Below are positions 15,749-58,600 of a stretch of DNA of 64,000 nucleotides, piece by piece. A program made the position numbers and the translations under genes. The DNA is from a virus. The stretch spans positions 1-64,000 of the IMG/VR virus record IMGVR_UViG_3300041955_001937. The stretch is one strand, 5' to 3'. Every line of letters starts with the position of its first letter. Positions within the stretch are counted from its first letter, which is position 1. A model generated the notes under the pieces. The model saw only the letters and a list, made by a program, of their open reading frames with translations, searched no databases and was not told where the DNA came from.

Positions 15749-17455
15749 GTGTCACTGGCGCTCATCAAATCCGAGATCGAACGGTTTCTCGCTGGCACAG
15801 AGCCCGAGGTCCTCTGCATCACCGGCGCGTGGGGCGTCGGCAAGACCTTCGCGTGGAATCGCTACTTGCGAGACGCACAGACCCGCGAATCTATTGGCCT
15901 AAAGCACTACGCATACGTATCGCTGTTCGGCAATAACAGCCTCGACGAGCTCAAATATGCCGTTTTTGAAAACACCATCGCCACTACGGATATCGGAATC
16001 GAACCTAGTCTTGAGACACTCCGTACCAACGCGATTGCCGTTACCAAACGCATCACGAAAAAGTCACTTGGCATGTTCCAGCAGCTGCCTGTTGTTAAGG
16101 GCCATGTCGGCGGCCTCGGGCCGCTCTGGTACATGGCGGTCAGCCGAACAGTTATCTGTATCGACGACATCGAGCGACGCGGTAAGAATCTCGACTTGCG
16201 CGACGTTCTGGGTCTCGTCACCCAGCTCAAAGAACAGAAGCACTGTAAAGTGTGCCTCATCCTCAATGACGAAGCTCTCAACGAAAGCCAAAGCGAATTT
16301 CGAACCTATTTCGAGAAGGTTGTCAATACGCAACTCGCCTTCGCCCCATCACCGCAGGAAGCGACCGGAATCGCGCTCGATCCGGAACAGGCGAGCAGCA
16401 AATGGCTCGCGCATTGTTGTGTCGTCCTCGGCATAGCCAACATCCGCCTCATCAAGAAGATCGAGCGGGCTATCCAGCAAGTCACCCCGTTTCTGAGCTC
16501 GTTTCATCCGAAGGTCGCCGAACAGGCAATCCAGTCGCTGGCGCTTTTCGCATGGGCCTTGTATGAGCCGCAGCGAGCGCCGACGCCCGAGTTCCTCCGT
16601 GATCGCGCTACCTACATCGTCCGTGAGAAGCGAGACGCGATTGGGCCACGCGAGGCGGCGTGGAACGCCTTGCTGGACACCTATGGCTTCCTCGCTATGG
16701 ACGAGCTCGATTCCGCCCTTCTTGCCGGGCTGCGGAATGGCTATTTTGATCAGGCCGTGATCCGTCAACATGCGGCGGCGTTAGACGGGACGTTGCAAAA
16801 CACCGAGGCTCACGATTCTGTCAGAGAAGCGTGGAAGCGTTATCACGACTCCTTCGACGATGACCAAGAGCAAACACTCGACGCGATTCACACCGCTTTT
16901 CTCGCAAATATCGGGCACATTGATGTCGTCAACTTTAGCCAGACCGTCGCTTTCTTCAAAGACTTAGGCAGGCCAGAGCAGGCTGCCCAGATGCTTGCGG
17001 CTTACATCACAGCACACCGAGACAATGCTGCGGTTTTCGACATCGAGAATCACCCTTTCCGCAATCAGATCACCGACCCCGACGTGATTCATGCCTTTCA
17101 ACAGCAGCAGAACGCCGTCGCGGCGCAGGTGGATGCCGCGGCAATTCTCCGGAGTATGGCGGACAGACACGGTTGGCATCCGGACGACCTGGCGGTCCTC
17201 GCCACCGTCTCGGTAGACGAGTACCGGCGGATCTTCAAAGAGCACCGCGGGGACGTTCTTCACGGCATCATTAATATGTGCTTGCAATTTAGGGCGCAAG
17301 CCGACAATCAGGGCATCATTGCCGAAAGGGCGCGCGCCGCGCTAGAACTCATCGGGCGCGAATCGCCCATGAACGCATTGCGCGTCAGAAAATACGGCAT
17401 AAGAGTCGGCGAGGCCGGCGAGGTCGAAGCCCCTCTGTCGAGGCCAGAAGGCTAA
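15749..17455 (+). CDS. KAP-family P-loop NTPase
   Basis: ITGAWGVGKT, YAYVSLFG, ICIDDIERR, YFEKV, NIRLIKK motifs. Confidence 0.8.
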   Translation: MSLALIKSEIERFLAGTEPEVLCITGAWGVGKTFAWNRYLRDAQTRESIGLKHYAYVSLFGNNSLDELKYAVFENTIATTDIGIEPSLETLRTNAIAVTKRITKKSLGMFQQLPVVKGHVGGLGPLWYMAVSRTVICIDDIERRGKNLDLRDVLGLVTQLKEQKHCKVCLILNDEALNESQSEFRTYFEKVVNTQLAFAPSPQEATGIALDPEQASSKWLAHCCVVLGIANIRLIKKIERAIQQVTPFLSSFHPKVAEQAIQSLALFAWALYEPQRAPTPEFLRDRATYIVREKRDAIGPREAAWNALLDTYGFLAMDELDSALLAGLRNGYFDQAVIRQHAAALDGTLQNTEAHDSVREAWKRYHDSFDDDQEQTLDAIHTAFLANIGHIDVVNFSQTVAFFKDLGRPEQAAQMLAAYITAHRDNAAVFDIENHPFRNQITDPDVIHAFQQQQNAVAAQVDAAAILRSMADRHGWHPDDLAVLATVSVDEYRRIFKEHRGDVLHGIINMCLQFRAQADNQGIIAERARAALELIGRESPMNALRVRKYGIRVGEAGEVEAPLSRPEG

Positions 17456-18681
17456 CGCTTCCGTCGCATTGTTACGAGCTTGGGCTTCGGTTTCTCCGCG
17501 AACGCATCTTTGAGGATCTGGGTGAGGCGCTGCTGCCGCTCCGGTATCCAGGCTGCATAGTGTTTACGGATCATCGGCTCAGAGTTGCCGAGCAGATCGG
17601 CCACGTCGCGCACCGACACGCCCCGCTGAAGAACGATGCGCGCGAACGTATGGCGGAACCGGTGCGGCGTCGGCTTGACCTTCCACGGACCGGACATTTC
17701 CCACAGCTTGTTTAGTTTGCGGCGCCACAGGTCGGTGATGACTTCGAGGCTCTTGGTCTGGTGTGCGCCGAATATAAAAGGTCCGATCTCCTTCGCACGA
17801 GCTTTGATGCGCTCCTGAAGCCAAGGCGGGACCCAGGTGTAGACATGCGTTCCCGCCTTCGTCGTGCGGATGAGAATCTCGCCGGTGTCGGTTTGCATGC
17901 GGTCGATGTGAAACTGGGCCACATCGGAGATGCGCAGACCAGTGTAGAGCGACAGCGAAATGAAGTCGGCGAGGTCCTGTCCTTTCCAGCGAAAGCGCTG
18001 CTCAGTGCCGTATTTCGGACAGGACTCGTACATGCATTTGATCTCGTCGTCGCTGAACGGAAGTTTTTGTTCGCCGCGACGATCGCTCGCATCCCTGCTC
18101 CGCGGGTTCTTGACAAGGCGCGCCGGATTGCGATCCATCCACTCGTTGGCATGGCAGTATTCGAAGAAGGCGCGGACCATACTCATGCGCCTCGGCGCCG
18201 TCTGGGGGCTGACATTCCATGAGGATCGGAACTCGCGCACATCGGACGGACCCCACTGATCGATCATGACGAAACCGCGCTGGTCGGAGAAGTCCTTCAG
18301 CTTATTCAGCATCAGGCGGTATTTCTTCTGGGTGGCGACGGCGGCGTGCTCGCCGAACTCGCTCTGAAAAGCCGCCGTGGCCTGGGTGATCGGTTTGCGG
18401 TGGGGCGCTGGTTTTTCGGGTATTGGCTCAGGCTTGGGCGTGACTTCGCCGGTCCAAGATCCGGTCGCTTCGAGAGGAGCGATTACCGTCTTGGCATCTT
18501 CCCATTCCCACTTACCGGTGCTCTGGCGGCGGTATTTCCGGGCGAGGGTTCCCGAGACAAATATCGGGCACTCACAACGCTTCCAGCCCTTCTTGCGTTC
18601 ATCGAATTCGCTGGAGAGATGTTCTTCTGGATGGCTTGCTTTGCAGTCACGCCGGTGGCGGCGATAGAGGTTGAGCCCCAT
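17452..18681 (-). CDS. int: Tyrosine integrase of the left island
   Basis: YTGLRISD, HRFRHTF, LLGNS...KHY catalytic motifs; adjacent to tRNA-Ser. Confidence 0.93.
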   Translation of the reverse strand: MGLNLYRRHRRDCKASHPEEHLSSEFDERKKGWKRCECPIFVSGTLARKYRRQSTGKWEWEDAKTVIAPLEATGSWTGEVTPKPEPIPEKPAPHRKPITQATAAFQSEFGEHAAVATQKKYRLMLNKLKDFSDQRGFVMIDQWGPSDVREFRSSWNVSPQTAPRRMSMVRAFFEYCHANEWMDRNPARLVKNPRSRDASDRRGEQKLPFSDDEIKCMYESCPKYGTEQRFRWKGQDLADFISLSLYTGLRISDVAQFHIDRMQTDTGEILIRTTKAGTHVYTWVPPWLQERIKARAKEIGPFIFGAHQTKSLEVITDLWRRKLNKLWEMSGPWKVKPTPHRFRHTFARIVLQRGVSVRDVADLLGNSEPMIRKHYAAWIPERQQRLTQILKDAFAEKPKPKLVTMRRKR

Positions 18682-18754
18682 GGCTCGATTCTATGACAGA
18701 TCTTCCGATTTCACCCGACGAAATCGAGTACCGGCTGTAAGTGCAAGAAAACAT

Positions 18755-18849
<95 letters not shown>

Positions 18850-18915
18850 CGGCGCCTTGCGGATCGACCTGACTCCAAAATAGTAGCATGGCGGTGCGAT
18901 AGAATCGGTTTACGT

Positions 18916-18992
18916 GCACCCGTAGCTCAGCTGGATAGAGCGTTTGCCTCCGAAGCAAAAGGTCGCTTGTTCGAATCAAGTCGGGTGCACCA
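18916..18992 (+). tRNA. tRNA-Arg(CCG)
   Basis: GCACCCG/CGGGTGC acceptor stem, TTTGC-CTCCGAA-GCAAA anticodon arm, TTCGAAT loop, ACCA end. Confidence 0.97.
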
Positions 18993-19028
18993 ATCCAAGT
19001 TATTAACTCTGAACAACTTCCCGGGAAA

Positions 19029-20351
19029 CTAGTTCTCATAGCCTTCCGTTTTCGTGTGATGGAATGTGATGGAATCGTTGAAAAGACTGCGGTCCAGGGC
19101 CTTAACAGCCGCTCTGACCGATTCCGGAATTGCTTGAATGTAGACCCCGGCCGTCATGTCGGGTGACGCGTGGCGCAGGTGCGCTTGCACGTCCTTCACG
19201 TCCCCGTACTGCTTCATGAGCGTCCCGCAGCTCCGGCGAAGGGTCTGATGAGTCACCCGTTTCTGGTGGTCGCGAAGGACGCCTGCAGCTCTCTGTTCGT
19301 CGCTGAGGGCCTCGAAGGCGCGGGCGGCGGCAGTCTTGATAATCCGCTTCAGAACGTTGTCCGGCCTCAGCGGCGTGTTTTTCCGCGACGGGAAAATCAG
19401 AGCCTCAGCGGGCGCGGCGGGCGCCAGGTCGAGCCACCACTTCAGCTCCTGGCCGATCGATTCCGGTATCCAAACGCAAGCGATCGAAGCGTCCGTCTTG
19501 GGCTCTTTGAACAAACCCTTCCACGCCGCCTCATCGATCCTGAGATAACCATTGGGCAGAACGTCGTTGCGCCGGAGCGCAAACATTTCTCCCGGCCGGA
19601 GACCCAGCACGATGAACATGCGAACCAGCAGGCGATCACGGCCGCTCAGTTGCCCCACTACGGCGGAAATCTCCTGTTCGGCAAGATACGACCGTTTCGG
19701 TTTACGCAGCTTTGGCGTCTTAAGACGGGCCACCGGACTCTTCCGGACCAGGTCCTGCTCGGAGGCTTCGGCGAAGATCGCCCCCAGTTGAACGCGAGCC
19801 TTCTTGTACGTGCTCTCGCTGTAGCGCGTAGCCAAGTCCTTGAGGAAGATCTGAACCTCGAAGCGCGTGACGGCGGAAAGCTGCATTGCGCCGAACCGGG
19901 GGAGGACGTGTGCCTCAACGATGGAACAGTTTGTGCTCTTCGTCGACGCCGCCCACTGATCTTCAACGACCGGAAGATAGCGGCTCGTCCAGAATTCCTG
20001 CACCGTCATGGCGCCGGACGCGGGCGGTGCCTGCCGGGCCACGGGGGCGATCGCGCGGCCGTACTGATCGAGGTTGGTCCGGATGAAGTCCCGGAGTTCC
20101 TGTTCCGCTTCCCATTTCTTTTTGTCGGCCTTCCAGCCGAGGGTCAGCGACTTGTGGACCGCTTTCTCGGTGCCGTCGGGCAGCGTGACGTACTCGTAGT
20201 AGAAACCCTTCCAGTACTTCCGTTTCGTGCCCAGCTCCCGAACATGGCCTTCCTGATGCCGCAATCTGGGCATGCGTTTACACCTCGCTTTGAGCCATGT
20301 TACTTGCTCGTGCGACAGTGGCTCGAATTGCCGGGCTGTGACTTGGAGCAT
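19029..20351 (-). CDS. int: Prophage tyrosine integrase
   Basis: LGLRPGEMFAL, EPKT, HQTLRRS, LRHAS...VY motifs. Confidence 0.93.
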   Translation of the reverse strand: MLQVTARQFEPLSHEQVTWLKARCKRMPRLRHQEGHVRELGTKRKYWKGFYYEYVTLPDGTEKAVHKSLTLGWKADKKKWEAEQELRDFIRTNLDQYGRAIAPVARQAPPASGAMTVQEFWTSRYLPVVEDQWAASTKSTNCSIVEAHVLPRFGAMQLSAVTRFEVQIFLKDLATRYSESTYKKARVQLGAIFAEASEQDLVRKSPVARLKTPKLRKPKRSYLAEQEISAVVGQLSGRDRLLVRMFIVLGLRPGEMFALRRNDVLPNGYLRIDEAAWKGLFKEPKTDASIACVWIPESIGQELKWWLDLAPAAPAEALIFPSRKNTPLRPDNVLKRIIKTAAARAFEALSDEQRAAGVLRDHQKRVTHQTLRRSCGTLMKQYGDVKDVQAHLRHASPDMTAGVYIQAIPESVRAAVKALDRSLFNDSITFHHTKTEGYEN

Positions 20352-22784: not shown

Positions 22785-22910
22785 CTTGGTTCGGTCACGG
22801 CGCTGGAGTTCGACCGATGATAGTCTATTTCTCTCAAGTTCTCAATAAGTTTGAGAAGTTTAGTGCTTTTCAGCACGTCTATAGGAAATGCCCTTTCGTC
22901 ATTCGTCAAA

Positions 22911-23411
22911 TTGATTCTTCAAACTGCCGACGCGGCCGTGATCGAGCACACGCCGATGGTACGGGCGATCGCGCTGAGAGTGCTCCGGCAACTTCCACCG
23001 TCGTTTGAGCTGGACGATCTGGTGCAGGAGGGAATGGTCGGGCTGCTTGAAGCCCTTGAACGGTTCGATCCGGGCGCCGGCATTCCGTTTGCGATCTATG
23101 CGGCCTGCAGGGTGCGCGGGGCGATGCTGGATTCGGTCCGTGGGAACTACATCGCGGCGACCCACGAAGAGCTGGACGAGGAAGTCGGGCAGGCGGATCC
23201 GATTCTGGAACGTATTGAGTGGAGGGAGCGCACCACCATGGTCGCGGCGGCCGTCAGGACGCTTCCGGAGCGGGACCGCAAGGTGATCGAATTCCGGTCC
23301 TCGGGGATGACGATGCGCCAAGTTGGAAGTGCGGTCGGAGTCGGGAAGACGCGCGCGATCCAGTTGTGCCAAAGAGCCATCGGGCGGGTGCAGGAAAAGA
23401 TCGCGGCTTGA
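22911..23411 (+). CDS. FliA/WhiG-like sigma70-family factor (regions 2 and 4; start uncertain)
   Basis: DDLVQEGMVGLLEALERFDP...FAIYAACRVRGAMLD and LPERDRKVI...TMRQVG. Confidence 0.88.
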   Translation: MILQTADAAVIEHTPMVRAIALRVLRQLPPSFELDDLVQEGMVGLLEALERFDPGAGIPFAIYAACRVRGAMLDSVRGNYIAATHEELDEEVGQADPILERIEWRERTTMVAAAVRTLPERDRKVIEFRSSGMTMRQVGSAVGVGKTRAIQLCQRAIGRVQEKIAA

Positions 23412-24549: not shown

Positions 24550-25268
24550 GGAGTGCGATCCGGTGCTTGATTGACCAGGTACGCAGTTTTGGCCCGGTCG
24601 CTTCGCCAGTGCTCAAACAGGCGTCGCGTGATAGCTGCGGGAAATATAGGGCGATCCGGAAACAGCCTGCGCCGCAACCGGAGTCTGTGTGGGCCCGAGG
24701 CGTGTGCATCGCGTTGGCGAGTGAACATTGCACAAGATGCGGAGGCGACGGTATCCGGATTTTGACGCAGGCCATCATCACACGCGGGTTGCCGGGTCCC
24801 TGCGGATGCGTGCTCCGCAAGATTTTTCGCGTGTGTTTCACGAGGTACTGCTACATCCAGTCGAGTGCGCGGGTGAGCAACTCGAAGATGGAGCGGATCG
24901 ACGCATTCCACGCCGGTCAGCGCGTGTCCCGATTTGTATTCGGGCGCAAAGAAGAGGAATTCGCGGCCGACTTTTGCGTGATAGCCAAGCGGGCGCTCGA
25001 ACCGCGGGCGTGGCGGATCTTCCAACTGCATTTCCTCGGCGGTCTCGAATGGCCGGCGTGTACACAGCGACTGGGCATGAATAAGGGAGAGTTCTTTACC
25101 GAGGTGTACCGGATTCAGCAGCGGTGCGGGCGTGCGTTCTATGAGACGCGGCCGTATGCGATCTATCCGATATACGAATACTTCGGCGGAACGACTTGCC
25201 GGGAAGACGGTGCCGCATCTGAGCCGAACGGAGCCGCCTCTGAGCCGGGGTTGAGGATGGCGGCATGA
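24546..25268 (+). CDS. Hypothetical protein with Cys motifs and a C-terminal sigma region-4-like HTH
   Basis: CTRCGGDG...PCGCV; AWRIFQLHFLGGLEWPACTQRLGM. Confidence 0.55.
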   Translation: MRSAIRCLIDQVRSFGPVASPVLKQASRDSCGKYRAIRKQPAPQPESVWARGVCIALASEHCTRCGGDGIRILTQAIITRGLPGPCGCVLRKIFRVCFTRYCYIQSSARVSNSKMERIDAFHAGQRVSRFVFGRKEEEFAADFCVIAKRALEPRAWRIFQLHFLGGLEWPACTQRLGMNKGEFFTEVYRIQQRCGRAFYETRPYAIYPIYEYFGGTTCREDGAASEPNGAASEPGLRMAA

Positions 25269-25918
25269 AGGGCGATACCTCCTACGAGAAGGTACCGGCG
25301 GACGCAACGGATGAGCGGAACCTGAAGCTCGTCGTGGATATCGTGGACCGGATTCGGCGGAAGGTGCCGGCTGACGTGATTTCGCGCCGCGACTTGATCG
25401 GGACAGGAAATCTCGCGCTGCTGCGCGCGGTGGGTAAATTCGATCCGGAGAGACACAATGGAACCCCCTTCCAGGCGTTTGCGCGACAAAAGATAAGGGG
25501 AGCGATTCTGGACGCCGTGCGGGCTATCTGGTGCGATGGCACCGGCCGCCATGGACTGCGGCCGAGGCTGGAGTCATTGGATGCCATCACGGATTCGATC
25601 GGGAGGCTACGACAAGGCCATACGTCGACAGCGGATCAAAGAGCGCTGGAGAGAGCGGGACATCCGCCCGGGGTCGAGAAGCGAATCGACCGGACGCGCC
25701 TCATTCGCCGTGTATCCGAGGCAATCGGCCGGCTGCCGGAAAATGAGCGGACGGTGCTGTCGCTGTGGCATGCCGACGATGAGCCACATCCTCGCGCGAT
25801 CGCTCGTCTGATGGGTCTCAGCGTGGAAGCCGCGACGTCTTTGCACGATCGGGCAATCGAGAATTTGCAGGCGGATTTATTGCCGCATCTGAGCCGAACG
25901 GAGCCGAAAGCGGCATAG
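25265..25918 (+). CDS. Second FliA/WhiG-like sigma70-family factor
   Basis: DLIGTGNLALLRAVGKFDP...FQAFARQKIRGAILD; LPENERTVLSL...IARLMGLS. Confidence 0.88.
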   Translation: MKGDTSYEKVPADATDERNLKLVVDIVDRIRRKVPADVISRRDLIGTGNLALLRAVGKFDPERHNGTPFQAFARQKIRGAILDAVRAIWCDGTGRHGLRPRLESLDAITDSIGRLRQGHTSTADQRALERAGHPPGVEKRIDRTRLIRRVSEAIGRLPENERTVLSLWHADDEPHPRAIARLMGLSVEAATSLHDRAIENLQADLLPHLSRTEPKAA

Positions 25919-27024: not shown

Positions 27025-27747
27025 ATGAAACTCGACCTTCATCCGACTCACCGAAAACTCGACCTGCATCACCGGATTTACATCGTCCTGCTGACATGTC
27101 TGCTGGGGCTCGGCTGCGTGGCGGGCTGGTATTTCGTGGCCAACGAGCGCGAGGCGATCCTGACCCAGCAGGAGGCGCGGAAGGATTTGCGCACGCTGGT
27201 GGACCCGAAAACCGGGCTGCAGACGGCGGTGCTGGCGCGTGTCGACACTGCAACCGGAGTGATCGACAGGCAGCTTACGAACGCACTGGGCAAGGCGGAC
27301 GGGCAGCTTACGAATGCGCTGGGCAAGGCCGACAAACAAATCACCGCGGGCTTGGCAGAAGTTCATCTGCTGAATCTGAACGCGGACAAGCGGTCGGGCG
27401 AGCTGCTGAAGATCGCCGCCGGCGTCAGAGGGGATCTGAAACCGTCTCTCGACAACACGGCGGCGCTGGTGAAGGACGCGCAGGATTCCCTGGACGATTC
27501 GTATTTCGACATCAAGGCGACCATCGAATCCGCAACCGTCACGACTCACAGCATAGCTCTGGCGTCTGAGGCAATCGCGAACGCCGCACCCAGCGTCTCC
27601 GCCTCGGTTGTGGGGATCGGCAAGAGTGCGGATGGGATCACGGCGGACGTTCACACCGCTACTGCCGAGTTCGTCAAGCCGAAGACTGTACTGCAACAGA
27701 TTCAATCCTGGCTCCTGACCATTGCACGGATCTACGGCGCGATATGA
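27025..27747 (+). CDS. TM plus long helical protein (lysis region, possibly spanin-like)
   Basis: N-terminal TM segment; 11-aa tandem duplication QLTNALGKAD(G/K). Confidence 0.6.
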   Translation: MKLDLHPTHRKLDLHHRIYIVLLTCLLGLGCVAGWYFVANEREAILTQQEARKDLRTLVDPKTGLQTAVLARVDTATGVIDRQLTNALGKADGQLTNALGKADKQITAGLAEVHLLNLNADKRSGELLKIAAGVRGDLKPSLDNTAALVKDAQDSLDDSYFDIKATIESATVTTHSIALASEAIANAAPSVSASVVGIGKSADGITADVHTATAEFVKPKTVLQQIQSWLLTIARIYGAI

Positions 27748-27989
27748 AAGACCACATCCCCACACTTGCGTTAGTCGCATCGCTGGCAATGATTCTTATC
27801 GCGCTGGTGGTGCTCTCGCTGAATGCGAAGAGCGGTGGAGCTACCCCGGTGCTGATCGGGCTGGTCGGGGCAGTGGGAACGGTGACGGGGATACTCGGCG
27901 GGTTCTCGCAACACAACAAGACGGCGACGGCGTCGCAAAAAACGACGGAAACGGCAATAGAAACCCAATCAAAGGAAAACACAACATGA
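27744..27989 (+). CDS. Two-TM holin-like protein
   Basis: 81 aa, two hydrophobic helices, polar tail, upstream of the endolysin candidate. Confidence 0.55.
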   Translation: MKDHIPTLALVASLAMILIALVVLSLNAKSGGATPVLIGLVGAVGTVTGILGGFSQHNKTATASQKTTETAIETQSKENTT

Positions 27990-28357
27990 GCTTTATAACG
28001 GCATTCAAAACGGCATGGAAAGATCTCAAGTCCGACTTCACGAAAGTCGACACCTTCCTGATCGCGAACGAACCCAAGATCCAGTCGGCAATTCAGACCG
28101 GAGTGGCAATAACGGAAGCGCTTGTTCCGGCCGCCGCGCCCGTTCTGACAACTCTCGATGCGTTCGAAGAGACTGCAGTGCCGGAACTGCTCGCCACAAT
28201 TGCCGCCGGCAACGCTGTGGTGAATGCCACATCCGGCACCGCGGCGGTGACACTCTCGGCCGGACTATACAGCTCGCTCAAGACCCTCGTGGGCACACTC
28301 TCGAATCATCCGGCCGTCGTTGCCGCAACTGCGCCCGCAACCACGCCGACTGCGTAA
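27986..28357 (+). CDS. Hypothetical Ala/Thr-rich protein
   Basis: AAAGGAA RBS, ATG at 27986. Confidence 0.65.
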   Translation: MSFITAFKTAWKDLKSDFTKVDTFLIANEPKIQSAIQTGVAITEALVPAAAPVLTTLDAFEETAVPELLATIAAGNAVVNATSGTAAVTLSAGLYSSLKTLVGTLSNHPAVVAATAPATTPTA

Positions 28358-28364
28358 GCGATCA

Positions 28365-28393
28365 GGGGGCACTCAAACGAGTGCCCCTTGTTT
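28365..28393 (+). terminator. Putative intrinsic terminator
   Basis: GGGGCACTC-AAAC-GAGTGCCCC stem followed by TTGTTT. Confidence 0.5.
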
Positions 28394-28413
28394 CCTGGCC
28401 GAGGACCAAAGTA

Positions 28414-28773
28414 ATGAACTGGCTTTACAAACAATCGACGGGCGAACTGCAGCACGGTGACCAGCCCGCAGGCATCGGCTACAGTGGCCACGGAGAAGGC
28501 CGGAACAATCCGGCAATGCAGGCTGTGCACGATGTGGGGCCGCTGCCACGCGGCTGGTACACCATCGGGCCGGCGCACGACACCACGACGCACGGCCCCC
28601 ACGTCATGTGTCTGACGCCGGATGCCGCGAACGATGAAGACGGACGCTCCGGCTTCCTGATGCACGGTGACAACGTGAAGCATGATGCTTCGCTGGGGTG
28701 CATCGTCATGGGGCCCGTCATCCGCTACGCGGTGAGCGCGAGCACGGACAAACGACTGCAGGTCGTGGCTTAG
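28414..28773 (+). CDS. Tlde1/DUF2778 L,D-transpeptidase-fold enzyme, endolysin candidate
   Basis: GYSG, GPLPRGWY, RSGFLMHGD...ASLGCI motifs. Confidence 0.8.
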   Translation: MNWLYKQSTGELQHGDQPAGIGYSGHGEGRNNPAMQAVHDVGPLPRGWYTIGPAHDTTTHGPHVMCLTPDAANDEDGRSGFLMHGDNVKHDASLGCIVMGPVIRYAVSASTDKRLQVVA

Positions 28774-29361
28774 ATGAAAACCGTCGCGTCAAAGCCGGCT
28801 GTCCCCGTTCTTCCGGAGCTGAAGATCGAAATGTGGCCGATCGATCGGCCGATTCCGTATCCGAAGAACGCGCGGAAGTGGAGCGCGCAGGCGATCGTGA
28901 AGGTGGCGGCATCGCTCAAGAAGTTCGGCTGGAGACAGCCGCTGGTCGTAGACGCCCAGGACGTGATTATCATCGGCCATCTGCGGCAGGCTGCGGCGCG
29001 CTACCTCGGCCAGGAATTCGTGCCGGTGCACGTGGCGTCCGATCTTTCGGATGTGGATGTCAAGGCGCTGCGCATCGCCGACAACCGCACGCACGAAGAG
29101 GCGACGTGGAACGCGAAGCTGCTGGGCGCGGAAATGATCGACCTGAAGGTGGCCGATTTCGATCTTAATATTACGGCGTTCGAGCCGGCCGAGATCATCG
29201 AGAGCATCTTCGGCGGCGCCGGCGGCAATAAGAAGAATCCTCCGGCTCCGCCAACCGGCGAGGTCCCGGACTTCGAGGCGGTGAGCGAAGCCGAACAGGG
29301 ACGGCTCGATCAGGCGAAACGGCAGTGTCCGAAGTGCGGCCATGAGTATTTTGAAGCTTGA
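28774..29361 (+). CDS. ParB/Srx N-terminal domain protein with C-terminal CPKCG
   Basis: PYPKNAR, SLKKFGWRQPLVVD, IIIGH.R, RIADNR. Confidence 0.88.
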   Translation: MKTVASKPAVPVLPELKIEMWPIDRPIPYPKNARKWSAQAIVKVAASLKKFGWRQPLVVDAQDVIIIGHLRQAAARYLGQEFVPVHVASDLSDVDVKALRIADNRTHEEATWNAKLLGAEMIDLKVADFDLNITAFEPAEIIESIFGGAGGNKKNPPAPPTGEVPDFEAVSEAEQGRLDQAKRQCPKCGHEYFEA

Positions 29362-29974
29362 CTGGTGCAGTCACGAAGCGGCGCGGTATGCGGTGCAGCG
29401 CTGGTACTCGAGGCCCGACATGCCGGTGGGGAAACTGGCGAAGATTGGCGTTTGGGAAGACGGCGCGTTCATCGGCGTGCTGATTTTCGGCTGCGGCACG
29501 GGCGGCGTGCAGAAGATCGGGGAGAAGCTCGAAACCGGCAAATTCGGCACGGCGGAGTTGTCGCGGATCGCGATGGGAAGCCACGTGGCGCCCGTGAGCC
29601 GGATCATTCGCATTGCCCTGATGCTGCTCACCAGAGCGCAGCCCGGGTTGCGGCTGATCGTTACCTATGCGGATCCGGCGGCGGGGCATCACGGGGGCGT
29701 GTATCAGGCGGGCGGATGGATCTATGCCGGCAGGAGCTCGAAGGACCATGTGTATCGCGATGCGGCCGGAGTCGACCATCATTCGATGCGGACGAGCGCC
29801 ACCGGGTGGAAGATGTTGAACGGCAAGATGACGCGAGTGGTGAGGACCGGCGACTGCACGAAAATTCCGCTGGAGCCGAAGCACCGGTACCTGATGCCGC
29901 TGGACGATGAAATGCGTGCCAAAGTAGAGTTGTTGAGAAAGCCGAGCCCGAAGCCGGCGAAAACGCGTCCGTAG
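29342..29974 (+). CDS. mom: Mom-family (GNAT-fold) DNA adenine modification enzyme
   Basis: IGVWEDG.FIGVLIFG, ELSRIA, LIVTYADP..GHHGGVYQA.GWIY.G, KHRYL motifs. Confidence 0.8.
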   Translation: MSILKLDWCSHEAARYAVQRWYSRPDMPVGKLAKIGVWEDGAFIGVLIFGCGTGGVQKIGEKLETGKFGTAELSRIAMGSHVAPVSRIIRIALMLLTRAQPGLRLIVTYADPAAGHHGGVYQAGGWIYAGRSSKDHVYRDAAGVDHHSMRTSATGWKMLNGKMTRVVRTGDCTKIPLEPKHRYLMPLDDEMRAKVELLRKPSPKPAKTRP

Positions 29975-30039
29975 TATTCCAGCGAAACATCCGCCGCCCA
30001 GGCGGAAGAGGGCGGGCCAGCACCGACCCGGACGCTCCA
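29965..30039 (+). ncRNA. Degenerate tRNA-Gly(CCC)-like element overlapping the mom stop codon
   Basis: 75 nt: GCGTCCG/CGGACGC acceptor stem, U8-A9, TCCGC-CGCCCAG-GCGGA anticodon arm, U73-CCA; D and T loops non-canonical. Confidence 0.75.
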
Positions 30040-30056
30040 AATTATGCGTTGACCGA

Positions 30057-30374
30057 ATGGACCGGCAGTACTACGACATCGACGACGTGGAGATTCGTGC
30101 GGGAGTTGTGGCTCATCTGATTCGGTTGGGGAAGCGCCCGCCTTTGGGACAGACGGTGGGTTTCGCCGCGCAGACGAAGGTGGTCCAAAGTGAAGCCGAC
30201 ATAGGCAATCCGAGCAAAGTGATCTCAGAAGGTGAGCGCATCTGGTGCCAGTTCACGATCACGCGAGGCGACATAGACCGTGCCCACAAGCTCATCGATG
30301 ACCAGACGATTACTTACGGAGAACCCAAGACTTCAAAGATGAAGTTCGATTGGCGGCGCGGGCGGCGAATTTGA
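30057..30374 (+). CDS. Hypothetical protein
   Basis: 105-aa ORF. Confidence 0.5.
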   Translation: MDRQYYDIDDVEIRAGVVAHLIRLGKRPPLGQTVGFAAQTKVVQSEADIGNPSKVISEGERIWCQFTITRGDIDRAHKLIDDQTITYGEPKTSKMKFDWRRGRRI

Positions 30375-30493
30375 TCCCGGCGGCGAATCCATTTCCGCGC
30401 AGGCGATTTCGTTTCGCCCAGGCGTCCCGCCGGTACCCATCGAAAAAAGTCGAATGAGTTGGCGGGGTTACTTCGCGTGCGGCGGGCGCTGGA

Positions 30494-30799
30494 CTAACCG
30501 CGCGCGTGGTCCCTGTTCTCGCGCGTGGTCCCTCTCCAGCATTCCCAAACGCCTTCGATCTCGACCTTGAATCCGAGATCGCCCGGGTAAGCGTGTATTC
30601 GTCGGATCAACCCGATGACGGCGACGATATCCAGGACGATCTGGTCATCCATTCCCCACAAGTCGGTTGGATCCCAGCCGCCGTTCTCCTCGGCGTTATG
30701 CCAAGCCAGGAGAAAATTCGCCACCCTGCGCGACTGCCCCGTGCCCGTCCGGGCGATGTCCAGTAGTCGGGCAATGGCCGCTCTTTCCTTATCCGTCAT
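30494..30799 (-). CDS. Conserved MGE hypothetical protein (DUF7673-like)
   Basis: RLLDIAR..TGQSRRVANFLLAWHN...GGWDPTDLW; GAAAGGAA RBS. Confidence 0.7.
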   Translation of the reverse strand: MTDKERAAIARLLDIARTGTGQSRRVANFLLAWHNAEENGGWDPTDLWGMDDQIVLDIVAVIGLIRRIHAYPGDLGFKVEIEGVWECWRGTTRENRDHARG

Positions 30800-30815
30800 C
30801 GTCGTTTGGTTCCTT

Positions 30816-31214
30816 TCAGCCGGCATGGACGATTTCCTCCGGGGTTGCATCGATCAGGCCGAGACTCCCTGAGCGTCGCAGGAACGGCAGCGGGCGCGCG
30901 TTGTGCAGCACCCAGCCGAATTGACCGGGTTCGCGCCAAACGGAATCGATGGCTGGATCGTAATCGTCTGGACTCAGGCAGTCTGTCAGCGTGACCATGC
31001 CGATAATCCCGCCGGATTCCAGGTATCGGGGTAAATCGATTGCAAAGCGTTCACGGATCACGCGGCGGAGATATTCGATTCGCGGTTCCCAGCGGCTGGA
31101 CGCCTGTATTAGCACGGGGCCACGGTAGAGCGTTCGTCGCGATCTGTTTTCGATGGGCTTGAATCCGTTGACGATGAGCCACGCCCACGGCTGTCTCACT
31201 ACGAGCACTTTCAT
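30816..31214 (-). CDS. ASCH domain protein
   Basis: VRQPWAWLIVNGFKPIENR...YRGPVLIQAS, GGIIG. Confidence 0.88.
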   Translation of the reverse strand: MKVLVVRQPWAWLIVNGFKPIENRSRRTLYRGPVLIQASSRWEPRIEYLRRVIRERFAIDLPRYLESGGIIGMVTLTDCLSPDDYDPAIDSVWREPGQFGWVLHNARPLPFLRRSGSLGLIDATPEEIVHAG

Positions 31215-32059
31215 GCGGCCACCAGGTGTGAAATCTGCGAACGGTTCCAGGTCCATGGCGCTTTGCGGATCGGCTGGGGAATCTTGCCCCGTTTCACCCA
31301 CGTGTAGACGGTGGAACTATTGATCCTGAGGGCGTGCGCAAGTTCCTGGGCGTCAATCGTCGGGCTATCGTCGGACGACTGGGGGACGGTCGCGGGCGCG
31401 CTCACGGGGCGCGTGTGGGCGATTGGCGAACTTGGTTCGATCACTGTCGAACCAGGCGCGATCAGTTCCATTTCGAGCGCGTTCAGGACCGCGCGGATGT
31501 TGCCCTCATGCTGATCGAGCAGCGCGGCGAAGTCGGGCGCGGGCGCGGTCGATTCCAGAGCCCAAACACGGGCGAGGAAATCCCGAGACGCTTCAATCTC
31601 CCGGCGCCCGTCGAAAGGGACGACGCGGCATCGGCTGATAAAGCGCTTTTCGAGCAGCTTGGTTTCGTTCGCCGTGAATATGAAAATCGTGTTCGGCGGG
31701 CGTGTGGTCCCGTCCAACTTCGAAAGGAAAGCCAGTTGCGCGGGTTGCGTCATCCGGTCCGCTTCATCCACCAAAACGATATGCCATCCGCCGTTCATGG
31801 GCGTGTACCAGCAGGCGTGACACGTCCGCTCCACGCCTTCCAGATCGCACTGGCGACTGGCGATGTGGTGGAGTTCCGCCTTCATGGCCACGGCGAGGGC
31901 GAGCCCCATCGAAGTTTTCCCGGTACCGGAATCGCCGGTGAACAGCCAGGCGGATTCGTAGGGTTCGGCGATCAGCGAGGCGAGCAGCTTCTTTGCCACG
32001 GTGAGGCCGGCGAACGCGTCAAGCGTCGCAGGCTGATATTTATCGGTGAGGGCGATCAT
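31211..32059 (-). CDS. Clamp-loader-clade AAA+ ATPase with C-terminal HTH
   Basis: DKYQP, GDSGTGKT, VDEADRM, ISRC, GNIRAVLNALE; C-terminal ELAHALRINSSTVYTWVKRG. Confidence 0.85.
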   Translation of the reverse strand: MIALTDKYQPATLDAFAGLTVAKKLLASLIAEPYESAWLFTGDSGTGKTSMGLALAVAMKAELHHIASRQCDLEGVERTCHACWYTPMNGGWHIVLVDEADRMTQPAQLAFLSKLDGTTRPPNTIFIFTANETKLLEKRFISRCRVVPFDGRREIEASRDFLARVWALESTAPAPDFAALLDQHEGNIRAVLNALEMELIAPGSTVIEPSSPIAHTRPVSAPATVPQSSDDSPTIDAQELAHALRINSSTVYTWVKRGKIPQPIRKAPWTWNRSQISHLVAA

Positions 32060-55624: not shown

Positions 55625-58600
55625 ATTTGTCGGCGTGATCCTCGGAGGACTCGCCATCGCTGTCGGCGTGCTGATCGATATCGGCACTTTCGGCGCGTTG
55701 ACCCCGCTTCTGGTTGGCCTGGCGGCGGCGCTTCTGACGGCGGGCACCGGCCTGGTCCTGTCCGGAGTCGGGACGCTCATTTCGGGATCCGCCCAGCAGA
55801 TGGGCGCCGGCATTGCCTTCGCCTCGCGCAACCCGATCAAGTCCTGGGACGTGATCTATGGCTACACCGTCGTCGGCGGCACGGTGGTTTACATTCTGGG
55901 CTGGGAAACCGGGGATGGAAACTACTATCTCGATCTCGTAGTCGTTCTCTGCGCTCATCAGGTCCAAAGCATCGACCGGCTTTTATTCGACAAACAGTTC
56001 GTCCAGTTGAACGGCAACGGAGACAGCTTCTCGCCGGTCCAGCAGAACATCAATATCCAGCACATCGCCCGCACGAACGGCATCGTACAGGTCACGCTTC
56101 CCGCCGATATTCCGCTCCTGCAGGTGGGCGATCGCATCGCGGTTCAGAACATCACCGGCGACTATACGCTGAACGGAACTTTTCCGGTCGCCGAAATTAT
56201 CCGCCAGGTTTACGAGATCGGCACGCCGGGGGCGCTGATCTTCCGTTATGTCTGCGGCGGCGGCAATTCCATCGTCGATAACGAAGGGCAGGTGCTCACC
56301 GTGTGGCCGGATTATGGGGCCAAGGTTCACATGGAAACCATGCTGGGCGCGCAAACGCTGGGCGAGACATTCCCCGGCATGCTCGGCAGCGGCACTCCGA
56401 TCGATGGGAATCTCGGCAACCTCGTACAGAATCCGCACAACCCGTGGACCGCGAATTGTTCACTGGTCGGCAAAGCGTGCGTGTTCCTGCGACTGCATTA
56501 CAGCGCCGCGATCTTCAGCGGCGGACTGCCCGCCATCAGTTTCGAGGTCCACGGCAAAAACGACATTTACGATCCCCGCCTCGGCGCACACGGCGGCGTC
56601 GGGACGACGGGCTACACCGACAATGCCGCGCTGGTGATCGCGGACTATCTGAGCATGGGGTCGAGTGGCGATCCCAACACCGGCTGGGGTTTCAAAGCGG
56701 TCTGGGGCACTGAGCTTCCCACCGCGACTTACATTGCCGAGGCGAACATCTGCGATGAAGACGTGCCGCTGGCGATCGGCGGATCGATTCCTTACAGCAC
56801 CGGCACGGTAACCGTGACGCACGGATCCACAACGGTGACCGGCGCGGGAACCACTTGGACCGCCGCGATGGACGGCGGGGCAATCATCGTGGGCGGCTAT
56901 ATCGCCACCATCCTTTCCGCGAGTGGCACGAGCATGACGCTGCGCGCCGGCTTTGCGGGGCCGAACGGATCGGCGCAGGGATACGAAATCGCTTACGGGG
57001 CCGGTTTCGAGCCGCGCTATCAGGCCGATGGCACTTTCGATCTGTCGCACAGTCGCGGCGTGATTCTGCAAAACCTGCTCACCTCGTGCGCCGGGCGGCT
57101 GAGCTTTCAGGCCGGGCAATACATTCTGCAAACCGGATCGTGGCGCGGGGCATCTCCGGCGCCGGCGCCGTCCATGGGTTCGATGTCCGGGGGCTTTCGC
57201 TGGAAAACGACGCCGCAGATCCGCGATCTGTACAACGGCGTCAAGGGAACTTACATTTGCCCGGCAAACAACTGGCATGCCGCGGACATTCCGCCGTATT
57301 GCCAGGATTCGCTGCACGGCTACAGCGGCCCATCGGACTATGGCGGCGATTCCAATCTGGCTGCCGATGGCGGGGACCGGCGCTGGTTCGACATGCAGCT
57401 TCCGTTCACGACTTCGCCATCGAGGGCGCAGCGGATTTGCAAGATCGAACTCCTGCGGCGCCGCTTCTGGGGTACCGGCACTTTCCGATACAACATGATC
57501 GGCTACCAGTTCACCGCGTTGGACGTGATTTCGATGAACCTGACGCTGTTCAGTTGGACGGCGAAGACTCTCGAAATTGCCGCGCACCGTTTCGTCATCA
57601 TCAAACAGGTATTGGAGAGCGGGGAAGAAGTCTCGGCGCTGGGCACTGAGATCGACGTGCAGGAAACCGACGCGTCAATTTACGATTGGTCGACGACGGA
57701 GGAGCTTTCGCCCGAGGGCTATGCGCAGCCCTATCTGGCGAATCCGTTCACGCCTTCGCCGCCCACCGGGCTCACGCTCGAAAGCGATTTATCGACGGCC
57801 GTTTCCACTCCGGCGGGCCTGTCCGACGCCATCCAGGTGAGCTGGACCGCGCCGGCGGACGGCTATGTGATCGAGGGCGGGCACATCGAAGTCCAGTATC
57901 AGGAAGTTTTCAGTTACCTCACCGGATCGGCCGGCGCGACCAACGGATCGGTCGATGTCACCGGCGTGGGCACGGATTGGACAACCGCGATGGAAGGCGG
58001 CGCCATCACCATCCAGGGCGCCCCCTATACCGTCGCCACGGTTACGGGCGCCGGTGCGCTCACTCTGACCATCGTCTTCGCCGGCATCACGGCCACCGGA
58101 CTTTCTTACGCGATCGCTTATCCCGACGCATGGACCGGCCTGCCGAGCGTCTCGCCTTCAGTTACGCAGGTCCTCATCACCGGCGTGGACGATGGCGCGA
58201 TCTATAACGTGCAAATCCGATCGGTCAACGCCAGCGGATTTCCTTCCTCGTGGGTGGCGGGTTCCGTCATTGCCCGAGGCGCGAGTCTGCCCTATGCGTG
58301 GAAGCCCGGCTATGAGCCGTATCTGTTCGCGGAATCCGGCTACAGCTTCGGCGGGCAGGTGGGGCCTGTAACCGCGAGCATCTTCGGTTTCAGTCCCGGA
58401 ATTCCGGCTGGCGTGATCGCGCTGAAGGGCAACATGCCGGTTAACACCGAATCGGCAACCGCGGGCATGCCGGTTATCGATCGGTTCGCCACAGTGGCCG
58501 CGCATTCGGGGAATACGCTGCCCGTGATCTCCGGCTTCCTTCAGGTCTTTGGCATCGATTCCGGCGGCGCGCGCTCGGAGAGCTCGAATATTTCCCAGTT

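What the first reader, a model, noticed from the sequence alone, without database searches (positions are those of the whole stretch)
29342..30039. Mom-like DNA hypermodifier with its own non-translational tRNA-Gly-like RNA
Seen: 29965-30039 folds as a 75-nt cloverleaf overlapping the mom stop codon (the TAG supplies U8-A9-G10). It keeps the bacterial GlyRS identity set (G1-C72, C2-G71, G3-C70, U73, C35-C36, encoded CCA) and perfect acceptor and anticodon stems. It has lost ribosome-related invariants: G33 instead of U33, no G18G19, no TTC loop, and a bulged T-stem. Known: Mu Mom makes N6-carbamoylmethyladenine, formally a glycinamide adduct, and staphylococci use non-proteinogenic tRNA-Gly with altered T arms as glycyl donors for FemXAB. 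I recall a report that Mom uses Gly-tRNA as donor; this needs verifying. Inference: a ParB-Mom-tRNA-mimic cassette in which the phage supplies a private glycyl donor, withheld from translation, for anti-restriction DNA modification.
Basis: partly seen in the sequence, partly recalled or inferred. Interest (0 to 1): 0.9.

Follow-up and report, generated by a model that had tools for sequence, protein, structure and literature searches.

The report
Mom gene's private glycine tRNA mimic
A prophage gene for the DNA-protecting enzyme Mom ends in a deformed glycine-tRNA look-alike that is conserved beside Mom genes in many unrelated phages, which suggests these phages carry their own glycine carrier for modifying their DNA.

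Summary
Observation confirmed. Window 29965-30039 (+) is a 75-nt cloverleaf overlapping the stop codon (nt 8-10) of a Pfam Mom gene (E 7.6e-34). ARAGORN and Rfam miss it. A covariance model built from 32 relatives, without the window, scores it 68.6 bits, E 6e-15.

- 90 of 98 Mom-homologue loci carry a full-length match at the Mom 3' end.
- Structure-blind alignments give 96% pairing and 15 of 21 pairs with compensatory changes; 0 of 500 shuffles reach this.
- In 70 distinct copies G1-C72, C2-G71, G3-C70 and U73 never vary, and C35C36 holds in 58 of 58. N34 is A in 34 of 58, U33 survives in 9 of 58, and the T stem has a conserved bulge.

Mom uses Gly-tRNAGly (PMC13219725). Best reading (0.6): a phage-supplied, GlyRS-chargeable, non-translational glycyl donor; charging and use are untested.

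A ParB-like gene lies directly upstream in 84 of 98 loci. Phage Mu lacks the element.

This scan noted the same kit before on other DNA. I found no paper describing it.

The parts
28774..29361 (+). ParB-like gene (195 aa), overlapping the mom start by 20 nt; the C-terminus carries an invariant C-P-x-C
   Evidence: phrog_620 ParB-like partition protein E 1.5e-43. Pfam ParB_N is only E 7e-4, below its cut-off. A homologue lies directly upstream on the same strand in 84 of 98 loci. C185, P186 and C188 are invariant in 51 sequences.
29342..29974 (+). mom gene (210 aa), GNAT-fold Mom family
   Evidence: Pfam PF25680 E 7.6e-34. PDB 8bv8 Mu Mom E 1.2e-4. Mu Y59, R111, S124, D149 and Y159 align with Y22, R75, S86, D111 and Y121; Mu H58 and R151 align with W21 and A113.
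29965..30039 (+). 75-nt tRNA-Gly-like element (whole cloverleaf with encoded CCA)
   Evidence: R2 model built without the window: 68.6 bits, E 6.4e-15. R1: 79.6 bits. Minimum-energy fold is a cloverleaf. No ARAGORN or Rfam call.
29965..29971 (+). Acceptor stem 5' strand (G1 C2 G3 U4 C5 C6 G7), also the last codons of mom
   Evidence: G1 C2 G3 with C70 G71 C72 in 70 of 70 distinct copies. Pairs 4-7 covary with 66-69.
29972..29974 (+). mom stop codon TAG = U8 A9 G10 of the element
29974..29988 (+). D arm: stem GUAU/AAAC (3 of 4 pairs), 7-nt loop without GG
   Evidence: The D stem is paired in 90.8% of cells in the long class.
29990..30006 (+). Anticodon arm: 5-bp stem, loop C32 G33 C34 C35 C36 A37 G38 (anticodon CCC at 29997-29999)
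   Evidence: C35C36 in 58 of 58; U33 in 9 of 58; N34 is A 34, T 14, C 8, G 2.
30011..30028 (+). T arm: GGCGG / loop GCCAGCA / CCG-A-CC with bulged A at 30026
   Evidence: The bulged-stem model is paired in 98.9% (long class) and 100% (short class) of cells, with compensatory changes in 3 of 5 pairs in each class.
30029..30039 (+). Acceptor stem 3' strand (30029-30035), discriminator U73 (30036), encoded CCA (30037-30039)
   Evidence: U73 in 70 of 70; CCA encoded in 41 of 70 distinct copies.

Best explanation
The prophage carries a three-part DNA-modification cassette on one strand: a ParB-like gene, mom, and a tRNA-Gly-derived RNA gene whose first ten bases are the last codons and stop codon of mom.

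Shown here:
- The RNA structure is real and under selection.
- It travels with this clade of Mom genes across many bacterial phyla.
- Exactly the nucleotides that bacterial GlyRS reads (G1-C72, C2-G71, U73, C35, C36; also G3-C70) never vary, while the rest of the sequence drifts with compensation.
- Features that every translating tRNA needs (U33, U8, G18G19, the T-loop sequence, a regular T stem, a sensible wobble base) are lost or free to vary.

Inferred:
- The element is transcribed with mom and released by tRNA-processing enzymes, with CCA added where it is not encoded.
- The host GlyRS charges it with glycine.
- Mom, which in phage Mu is known to take glycine from Gly-tRNAGly and put it on N6 of adenine in dsDNA, uses it as its glycyl donor.
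- The extra nucleotide in the T stem lies among the three base pairs that EF-Tu reads. Together with the missing U33, this keeps the charged RNA off the ribosome, so the phage has a donor pool that does not compete with translation.
- The near-invariant T-arm sequence may also be a handle for Mom or its ParB-like partner.
For: Mom identity: Pfam E 7.6e-34. Five of seven residues named as important in Mu Mom are kept.

Chemistry: Mom uses Gly-tRNAGly, all isoacceptors work, and recognition is probably at the acceptor end (PMC13219725, sections 9, 10 and 14).

Linkage:
- 90 of 98 Mom-homologue loci have a full-length R1 match (26-96 bits) starting 15 nt before to 68 nt after the end of the Mom match, on the same strand.
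- L078 has it after the second of two tandem Mom genes.
- In L016 it lies between two Mom domains.
- In 4 whole genomes the model found only host tRNA-Gly genes, one tRNA-Phe, and the single Mom-adjacent element.

Structure (MAFFT alignments made without structure):
- Long class, 38 sequences: 96.1% of cells paired against 35-44% when partners are slid; 15 of 21 pairs and 131 cells with changes on both sides; 0 of 500 shuffles as high.
- Short class, 24 sequences: 96.6% against 32-43%; 12 of 17 pairs; 0 of 500.

Identity set:
- G1C2G3/C70G71C72 in 70 of 70; U73 in 70 of 70.
- C35C36 in 58 of 58 seven-base loops.
- These are the published GlyRS determinants (PMC10464925, abstract and discussion passages).

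Non-translational features:
- U33 in 9 of 58; N34 is A in 34 of 58; A8 in 62 of 70.
- The D arm is absent in the short class.
- ARAGORN of the 90 tRNA-Gly; Rfam at gathering finds 0 in 20 loci.
- Host tRNA-Gly genes of the same genomes keep U8, GG, U33 and TTCGA.

EF-Tu reads T-stem pairs 49-65, 50-64 and 51-63, and the staphylococcal cell-wall tRNAGly binds EF-Tu poorly (PMC3239215, passages).

A gene-level rather than strictly cis link: Microbacterium phage Appa has a canonical tRNA-Gly(CCC), its annotated gt01, 33 nt after Mom but on the opposite strand.
Against: - There is no evidence that the RNA exists as a separate species, is charged, or is used by Mom. The public RNA runs gave only a few contigs and none over the element.
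- Mu Mom works with ordinary host tRNAGly, so a private donor is not needed for the chemistry.
- Mu, Pseudomonas JD024 and Enterococcus phiEf11 lack the element, phiEf11 despite having a ParB-like gene. So do Salmonella VSiP, Enterococcus Stockyards, Aeromonas AS-sw and Proteus PM87.
- L. plantarum GlyRS needs the arms and the whole L shape (discussion passage). Copies without a D arm or with a distorted elbow may therefore charge poorly.
- The mom frame stays open through the element in 63 of 70 distinct copies, against 77 of 140 for the other two frames. This hints that the stretch is also translated and that RNA release would cut the mRNA ahead of its stop codon.
- The strict conservation of the T arm is not explained by a mere anti-EF-Tu role.
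Confidence: 0.6

Rival explanations
1. The element acts only in cis on the mom transcript. It would be a tRNA-shaped 3' module that recruits RNase P or RNase Z, or blocks exonucleases, and so sets mom mRNA stability or limits Mom output. For example, a cut at G1 would remove the stop codon and send ribosomes to rescue. It would not serve as a glycine donor.
For: - It overlaps the mom 3' end on the same strand in nearly all loci.
- The stop codon lies inside or beyond the element in 89 of 94 adjacent matches.
- There is no intrinsic terminator on the + strand nearby.
- Mom is a tightly regulated protein in Mu, which has a translational activator, Com, annotated beside it.
Against: - A processing or stability signal does not need invariant C35C36, U73 and G1-G3, the exact GlyRS set, while N34 and the stems drift.
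- In phage Appa the linked tRNA-Gly is on the opposite strand, so it cannot act in cis on mom mRNA.
- In Salinibacter phage B2_17 the element lies 33 nt after the annotated stop.
Confidence: 0.2
2. The RNA binds Mom, or the ParB-like protein, as a regulator, scaffold or decoy rather than as a substrate. It could hold Mom inactive until late, or distract host tRNA-targeting defences.
For: The T-arm sequence with its bulge is almost invariant, whereas the other stems vary. This suggests direct read-out by a protein. Mom is a tRNA-binding enzyme.
Against: The anticodon bases C35C36 and the discriminator would not need to match the GlyRS set for a scaffold. The Arthrobacter phage copies keep the identity set but have a regular T stem. 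No defence gene is linked.
Confidence: 0.1
3. It is an ordinary phage-encoded translational tRNA-Gly that merely happens to sit next to mom.
For: Phages often carry tRNA genes (my own knowledge). ARAGORN calls some copies tRNA-Gly: L005, L042, L073 and Wyborn. GenBank annotates tRNA-Gly in B2_17 and Appa.
Against: - U33 in 9 of 58; A34 in 34 of 58 (an anticodon ACC that bacteria do not normally use for glycine, from my own knowledge); A8 in 62 of 70.
- Bulged T stem; a whole class without a D arm.
- Rfam's tRNA model is silent in 20 loci.
- It is fixed to Mom in 90 of 98 loci.
Confidence: 0.04
4. It is a chance GC-rich fold or an intrinsic terminator.
For: On its own the window sequence folds only modestly better than shuffles: z -2.33, 2 of 200.
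Against: R2, built without the window, gives 68.6 bits, E 6.4e-15. Covariation is strong. No U tract or terminator-like site on the + strand.
Confidence: 0.01

Closest known systems
Phage Mu Mom with host Gly-tRNAGly (Silva et al., Nat Commun 2026, PMC13219725; PDB 8bv8)
   Same: Same enzyme family (Pfam PF25680). Residues aligning with Mu Y59, R111, S124, D149 and Y159 are kept. The expected chemistry is glycyl transfer from a tRNA-type donor to adenine N6 in dsDNA.
   Different: Mu has no linked tRNA-like element: best R1 score 6 bits, and no ARAGORN call. It has Com upstream, not a ParB-like gene. Identity to Mu Mom is low (phmmer E 1.2e-4), and Mu H58 and R151 are not matched. The paper's main text has no occurrence of 'tRNA-like' and the 2023 preprint none of 'tRNA-like' or 'ParB'. 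Its supplements could not be opened.
Non-proteinogenic tRNAGly of staphylococci, glycine donors for FemXAB cell-wall bridges
   Same: The idea is the same: a dedicated tRNAGly, charged by the normal GlyRS, that evades EF-Tu through its T stem and feeds a non-ribosomal transferase (PMC3239215 passages; listing of PMC12256121 and PMC4574755).
   Different: Those are host genes that still look like tRNAs. Here the RNA is phage-encoded, fused to the enzyme's own gene, much more deformed (bulged T stem, no U33, often no D arm), and the presumed acceptor is DNA.
Canonical bacterial tRNA-Gly
   Same: Cloverleaf; G1-C72, C2-G71, G3-C70, U73, C35C36; CCA. Host tRNA-Gly(CCC/TCC) genes of the same genomes share these with the element.
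   Different: Host copies keep U8, G18G19, U33, the TTCGA T loop and a regular T stem; the Mom-linked elements do not.
tRNA-like structures at the 3' ends of plant virus RNAs (from my own knowledge, not checked here)
   Same: A tRNA mimic at the 3' end of a coding viral RNA that host synthetases can charge.
   Different: Those are RNA-virus genome ends with pseudoknotted acceptor stems and roles in replication and translation. This one is a true cloverleaf in a DNA phage, linked to one enzyme.

Membership tests
Mom protein family (Pfam PF25680) | Profile match above the curated cut-off over the full domain | tested here: met
   117.6 bits against a cut-off of 27.1; profile 3-202 of 202. phrog_1384 E 8.4e-36.
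Mom protein family (Pfam PF25680) | Residues important for activity in Mu Mom (H58, Y59, R111, S124, D149, R151, Y159; PMC13219725 section 13 passages) | tested here: inconclusive
   Five of seven are matched (Y22, R75, S86, D111, Y121). H58 aligns with W21 and R151 with A113 in a pairwise phmmer alignment. R75 is invariant and S86 at least 90% conserved in 51 homologues.
Mom protein family (Pfam PF25680) | Glycyl transfer from Gly-tRNAGly to adenine N6 in dsDNA | not testable with these tools
   Needs enzyme assay or LC-MS of virion DNA.
Elongator tRNA-Gly (Rfam RF00005 / ARAGORN) | Cloverleaf with 7-bp acceptor stem, anticodon arm and T arm | tested here: met
Elongator tRNA-Gly (Rfam RF00005 / ARAGORN) | Recognised by standard tRNA models | tested here: not met
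   No ARAGORN call in the window. No Rfam match at E<=10. 0 Rfam matches at gathering in 20 related loci. ARAGORN of 90 related copies tRNA-Gly.
Elongator tRNA-Gly (Rfam RF00005 / ARAGORN) | Universal translation-related nucleotides: U33, G18G19, T54-Psi55-C56 loop, regular 5-bp T stem | tested here: not met
   Window: G33, no GG in the D loop, T loop GCCAGCA, bulged A at 30026. Family: U33 in 9 of 58; bulge conserved.
Substrate of bacterial GlyRS | Determinants G1-C72, C2-G71, C35, C36, U73 (PMC10464925) | tested here: met
   All are present in the window. Invariant in 70 of 70 copies (acceptor, U73) and 58 of 58 (C35C36).
Substrate of bacterial GlyRS | Actual glycylation; an L-shaped body acceptable to the enzyme | not testable with these tools
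   PMC10464925 reports that the arms and L shape are needed by L. plantarum GlyRS. The distorted elbow here leaves this open.
Non-proteinogenic donor tRNA (staphylococcal type) | Weak EF-Tu binding through T-stem pairs 49-65, 50-64 and 51-63 | not testable with these tools
   The extra nucleotide lies between pairs 51-63 and 50-64. The effect on binding is inferred.
Intrinsic terminator | GC-rich hairpin followed by a U tract | tested here: not met
   No + strand terminator-like site in 27500-31500. CCA is followed by AATTATG.

The most novel reading that the evidence does not exclude
The cassette is a self-contained 'momylation' machine in which the enzyme's own messenger carries the glycine carrier.

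- The tRNA-like RNA is cut out of the mom transcript by RNase P and 3' processing. In most copies this removes or splits off the mom stop codon, so donor supply and enzyme output are coupled and self-limiting.
- The invariant bulged T arm is a private handle read by Mom or its ParB-like partner.
- The ParB-like protein docks by its C-terminal tail on the Mom N-terminus and brings the pair to phage DNA.
Probability: 0.3. Interest if true: 0.9.

Novelty: new variant of a known kind. Interest (0 to 1): 0.8.

Why it matters
Mom's use of charged tRNA to modify DNA was only established in 2026, with host tRNA. A phage-encoded tRNA-derived RNA that keeps only the synthetase identity marks, and is fixed to the Mom gene across phages of many bacterial phyla, would be the first dedicated non-translational tRNA for a DNA-modifying enzyme.

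- It would show how a virus can draw on the aminoacylation machinery without competing with protein synthesis.
- It offers a natural minimal GlyRS substrate and a candidate orthogonal aminoacyl carrier.
- It explains a class of odd or missed 'tRNA' calls in phage genomes.
- It flags that many Mom open reading frames in databases run through an RNA gene.

It is directly testable in cultured systems that carry it: Salinibacter phage B2_17, Arthrobacter phages Sonny and Wyborn, and Microbacterium phage Appa with a canonical linked tRNA-Gly.

Tried and rejected
- **Exact search.** A search of viral contigs with the first 41 nt of the element found nothing. The nearest Mom relatives are only 51% identical or less, so no close-relative comparison was possible.
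- **Rfam.** The window region at E<=10 gave only a chance Guanidine-III hit (12.3 bits against 36).
- **Expression.** The look-up of sequencing runs gave three runs with small shares of the words (0.07-0.20). When laid all were contigs, at 90-99% identity, so probably relatives. One 151-nt metatranscriptome contig lies on 29817-29967 with 2 differences; its end is set by read length. Nothing lay on 29981-30041. This says nothing for or against transcription or processing.
- **Terminator and promoter scan.** The scan of 27500-31500 gave nothing on the + strand.
- **Weak second match.** Window 57088-57172 scores 16.6-17.3 bits, E 0.07-0.6, and was treated as noise.
- **phiEf11.** I looked for a diverged copy with filters off; the best score was 2.7 bits, and the sequence after its Mom shows a plain hairpin.
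- **Peptide hypothesis.** I considered that the conserved stretch is a conserved C-terminal peptide of Mom. I rejected this because the Mom frame relative to G1 differs between copies (50, 37 and 7 rows in the three frames) and because the stems covary.
- **Att remnant.** I considered an integration-site remnant and rejected it. The real att region, with tRNA-Ser, tRNA-Arg and two integrases, is at 17.4-20.4 kb, and the element is internal and complete.
- **T-stem register.** ARAGORN's drawing (G.A mismatch plus an unpaired C) was replaced by the bulged-A register, which pairs 98.9-100% of cells.
Full report
**What is in the window.** The + strand ORF 29342..29974 (210 aa) is a full-length Mom-family protein.
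- Pfam PF25680: E 7.6e-34, profile positions 3-202 of 202. phrog_1384: E 8.4e-36.
- Its only solved relative by sequence is Mu Mom, 8bv8, E 1.2e-4.
- The paper names H58, Y59, R111, S124, D149, R151 and Y159 as active-site residues. H58-Y59, D149, R151 and Y159 fit the chain only if the chain index equals the paper's number minus 9.
- On that basis Y59, R111, S124, D149 and Y159 align with Y22, R75, S86, D111 and Y121. H58 and R151 align with W21 and A113.
- In 51 homologues R75 is invariant and S86 at least 90% conserved.

Upstream, overlapping the mom start by 20 nt, lies a ParB-like gene at 28774..29361. It matches phrog_620 at E 1.5e-43, while Pfam ParB_N is only E 7e-4.

The record is a provirus of 72,726 bases. 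Two tyrosine-integrase genes (17452-18681 and 19029-20351, both on the - strand) flank tRNA-Ser and tRNA-Arg at 18757-18992. That marks the integration region about 10 kb to the left of the cassette.

**The element itself.**
- A perfect 7-bp acceptor stem beginning G1 C2 G3.
- The mom stop TAG as nt 8-10.
- A weak D stem (3 of 4 pairs) with no GG in its loop.
- A perfect 5-bp anticodon stem with loop CGCCCAG (G33, anticodon CCC).
- A T stem GGCGG/CCG-A-CC with one bulged A, and T loop GCCAGCA.
- U73 and an encoded CCA.

The minimum-energy fold is a cloverleaf, but the single sequence is only modestly better than its shuffles (z -2.33, 2 of 200). ARAGORN and Rfam do not see it.

**Relatives.** The window's Mom found 18 loci in genome contigs and 80 in viral contigs (the best 80 of 145), all at 51% identity or less.

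ARAGORN on these loci called a tRNA-Gly(acc) exactly at the Mom 3' end in L005, L042 and L073. A covariance model from these three plus the window (R1) gave these results:
- 90 of the 98 loci have a full-length match of 26-96 bits on the Mom strand. It starts between 15 nt before and 68 nt after the end of the Mom alignment.
- L011 has a partial match cut by the contig end.
- L004 has a weak variant (19 bits) with a different T arm.
- L078 carries the element after the second of two tandem Mom genes.
- L015-L018 carry it about 90 nt before the Mom match. In L016, the only one I checked, it lies inside a 542-aa ORF between two Mom domains.
- L013, a truncated Mom match, has none.

To remove circularity I built R2 from 32 relatives without the window. 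It scores the window's element at 68.6 bits, E 6.4e-15, the only strong hit in the 64 kb.

In five whole genomes that hold such loci, R1 at E<=0.01 found matches in four. These were host tRNA-Gly(CCC/TCC) genes, one tRNA-Phe, and in each genome the one Mom-adjacent element, which ARAGORN does not call.

**Structure.** On MAFFT alignments made without any structure:
- The 38 distinct four-arm copies pair in 96.1% of cells, against 35-44% when the 3' partners are slid by 1-3 columns. 15 of 21 pairs and 131 cells show changes on both sides, and 0 of 500 column shuffles reach any of the five measures.
- A second class of 24 distinct copies of 67-70 nt has no D arm, only a linker of about 12 nt. 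It pairs in 96.6% of cells against 32-43%, with 12 of 17 pairs compensated, 0 of 500.
- The T stem with a bulged nucleotide pairs in 98.9% and 100% of cells and has compensatory changes in 3 of 5 pairs in each class. This supports that register over ARAGORN's mismatch drawing.

The sequences are related by descent, so the shuffle counts are not probabilities. The slid controls and the number of compensated pairs are the stronger evidence.

**What is kept and what is lost.** Among 70 distinct Mom-adjacent copies:
- G1C2G3 with C70G71C72 in 70 of 70, and U73 in 70 of 70.
- CCA is encoded in 41 of 70.

Among the 58 with a seven-base anticodon loop:
- C35C36 in 58 of 58, and A37 in 49.
- Position 34 is A 34, T 14, C 8, G 2.
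- Position 33 is A 19, G 19, C 11, T 9.

Position 8 is A in 62 of 70 and T in 5, the window among them.

The invariant set is the published determinant set of bacterial GlyRS: G1-C72, C2-G71, C35, C36 and U73 (PMC10464925, abstract and discussion passages). Host tRNA-Gly genes from the same genomes share just these positions with the element, and otherwise keep U8, GG, U33 and TTCGA.

EF-Tu reads T-stem pairs 49-65, 50-64 and 51-63, and the staphylococcal cell-wall tRNAGly is a weak EF-Tu binder (PMC3239215, passages). The conserved extra nucleotide here sits between the 51-63 and 50-64 pairs. That A34 is not a normal glycine wobble base in bacteria is my own knowledge.

**Chemistry and literature.**
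- Silva et al. (PMC13219725; abstract, sections 9, 10 and 14, and passages of 13 and 38 read) show that Mu Mom transfers glycine from Gly-tRNAGly to adenine N6 in dsDNA. All three E. coli isoacceptors work, mischarged Gly-tRNAAla does not, and recognition is probably at the acceptor end.
- Their main text has no 'tRNA-like' and one 'tRNA gene' (the E. coli clones). The 2023 preprint has neither 'tRNA-like' nor 'ParB'.
- Searches for Mom with carbamoylmethyl, glycyl-tRNA, 'Mom-like' plus tRNA, 'momylation', and ParB-like nuclease domain/acetyltransferase/tRNA-Gly turned up no paper on a Mom-linked tRNA.
- The supplements were closed.

**Cultured phages**.

| Phage | Finding |
|---|---|
| Salinibacter phage B2_17 | Classic bulged element 33 nt after its Mom-like gene (R2 90.2 bits). 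GenBank annotates it as tRNA-Gly; ARAGORN misses it. |
| Arthrobacter phage Sonny | Copy overlapping the Mom stop (R1 43.8 bits; R2 48.5 bits), regular T stem, anticodon UCC, unannotated. |
| Arthrobacter phage Wyborn | Copy overlapping the Mom stop (R2 48.9 bits), regular T stem, anticodon UCC, unannotated. |
| Microbacterium phage Appa | Normal-looking tRNA-Gly(CCC) 33 nt after Mom on the opposite strand. |
| Mu, Pseudomonas JD024, Enterococcus phiEf11 | No element. |
| Salmonella VSiP, Enterococcus Stockyards, Aeromonas AS-sw, Proteus PM87 | No element. |

So the element belongs to the Mom clade that usually has the ParB-like gene, not to all Mom genes.

**ParB-like partner.** A homologue lies directly upstream on the same strand in 84 of 98 loci. 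Some loci keep the element without a detectable ParB-like gene, for example L062.

A fold of Mom (alignment of 51 rows) with the ParB-like protein (51 rows) and a zinc ion supports binding:
- The median score of three runs is 0.66; the best of 3 controls is 0.02.
- The mark was reached by 58 of 80 solved complexes and 2 of 110 mismatched pairs.
- The runs agree in at least 48% of contacts, and the partner's pLDDT is at least 69.
- The counts hold only roughly, because my own alignments and a riding ligand differ from the calibration.
- The contacts join ParB-like residues 157-181 and 194-195 to Mom residues 7-13, 16-51, 67-71 and 99-103.

This is a model's confidence, not a measurement.

**An unexplained feature.** In 83 of 94 adjacent matches the Mom frame stays open through the whole element. 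The stop lies inside it in 6 (the window at nt 8-10), before it in 4, and one is cut.
- Among distinct copies the Mom frame is open in 63 of 70, against 77 of 140 for the other two frames.
- The frame relative to G1 differs between copies (50, 37 and 7 rows in the three frames), so no peptide is conserved.
- The copies are not independent, so I do not give a probability.
- The anatomy means that cutting the RNA out at G1 would leave mom mRNA without its stop codon in most copies. Translation and release of the RNA must therefore compete or be coupled.

**Verdict.**
- The best reading is a phage-supplied glycyl donor for Mom that is charged by GlyRS and kept out of translation (0.6).
- A purely cis role on the mom transcript (0.2) and a regulator or scaffold role (0.1) remain open.
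- Nothing here shows expression, charging or use.
- The scan's earlier notes describe the same kit on other DNA (83 notes in at least 60 genomes). My tests were made independently on this window's relatives and agree with them.

Noticed in passing
window 17452-20351: tRNA-Ser(gct) at 18757-18849 (-) and tRNA-Arg(ccg) at 18916-18992 (+) sit between two tyrosine-integrase genes (17452-18681 and 19029-20351, both -). This is probably two integration sites back to back, and the left end of the Mom-bearing prophage.
   Followed up: partly
L002-L099, at the Mom 3' ends: The Mom reading frame stays open through the tRNA-like element in 63 of 70 distinct copies, against 77 of 140 for the other two frames, although the frame relative to G1 differs between copies. 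Many database Mom proteins must therefore carry a tail encoded by an RNA gene.
   Followed up: partly
L016 1933-3561; L078 2764-4255: Tandem Mom arrangements. L016 has one 542-aa ORF with two Mom domains and the tRNA-like element (2843-2915) between them. L078 has two Mom genes in a row with the element after the second. ARAGORN labels the L015-L018 copies tRNA-Trp(cca).
   Followed up: partly
L101 2160-2234 (Microbacterium phage Appa): A canonical tRNA-Gly(CCC), with U33, GG, TTCGA and a regular T stem, lies 33 nt after the Mom-like gene but on the opposite strand. It is annotated as gt01.
   Followed up: partly
window 29325-29377: The ParB-like C-terminus has an invariant C-P-x-C (C185, P186, C188). 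The Mom N-terminus has a conserved D-W-C-x-H-E stretch. The fold model puts the ParB-like tail (157-181, 194-195) on Mom residues 7-13. A shared metal site is conceivable but untested.
   Followed up: partly
window 22851-23411, 25265-25918, 28375-28770: The same + strand block holds two sigma-70-like genes (Sigma70_r2 E 2.2e-16 and E 3.7e-07) and, just before the ParB-like gene, a Tlde1-domain protein (E 3.3e-12; phrog_24118).
   Followed up: no
window 30816-32059 (-): Convergent genes downstream: a phrog_3193 protein of unknown function, and a clamp-loader-like protein with an excisionase-like C-terminal stretch (phrog_168 E 1.3e-19; phrog_66 E 1.5e-07).
   Followed up: no
L019 2193-2288: ARAGORN calls a 96-nt 'tRNA-Pyl(cta)' in a Saccharibacteria contig about 800 nt before the short Mom-like match. 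It is not related to the element, and I did not examine it.
   Followed up: no
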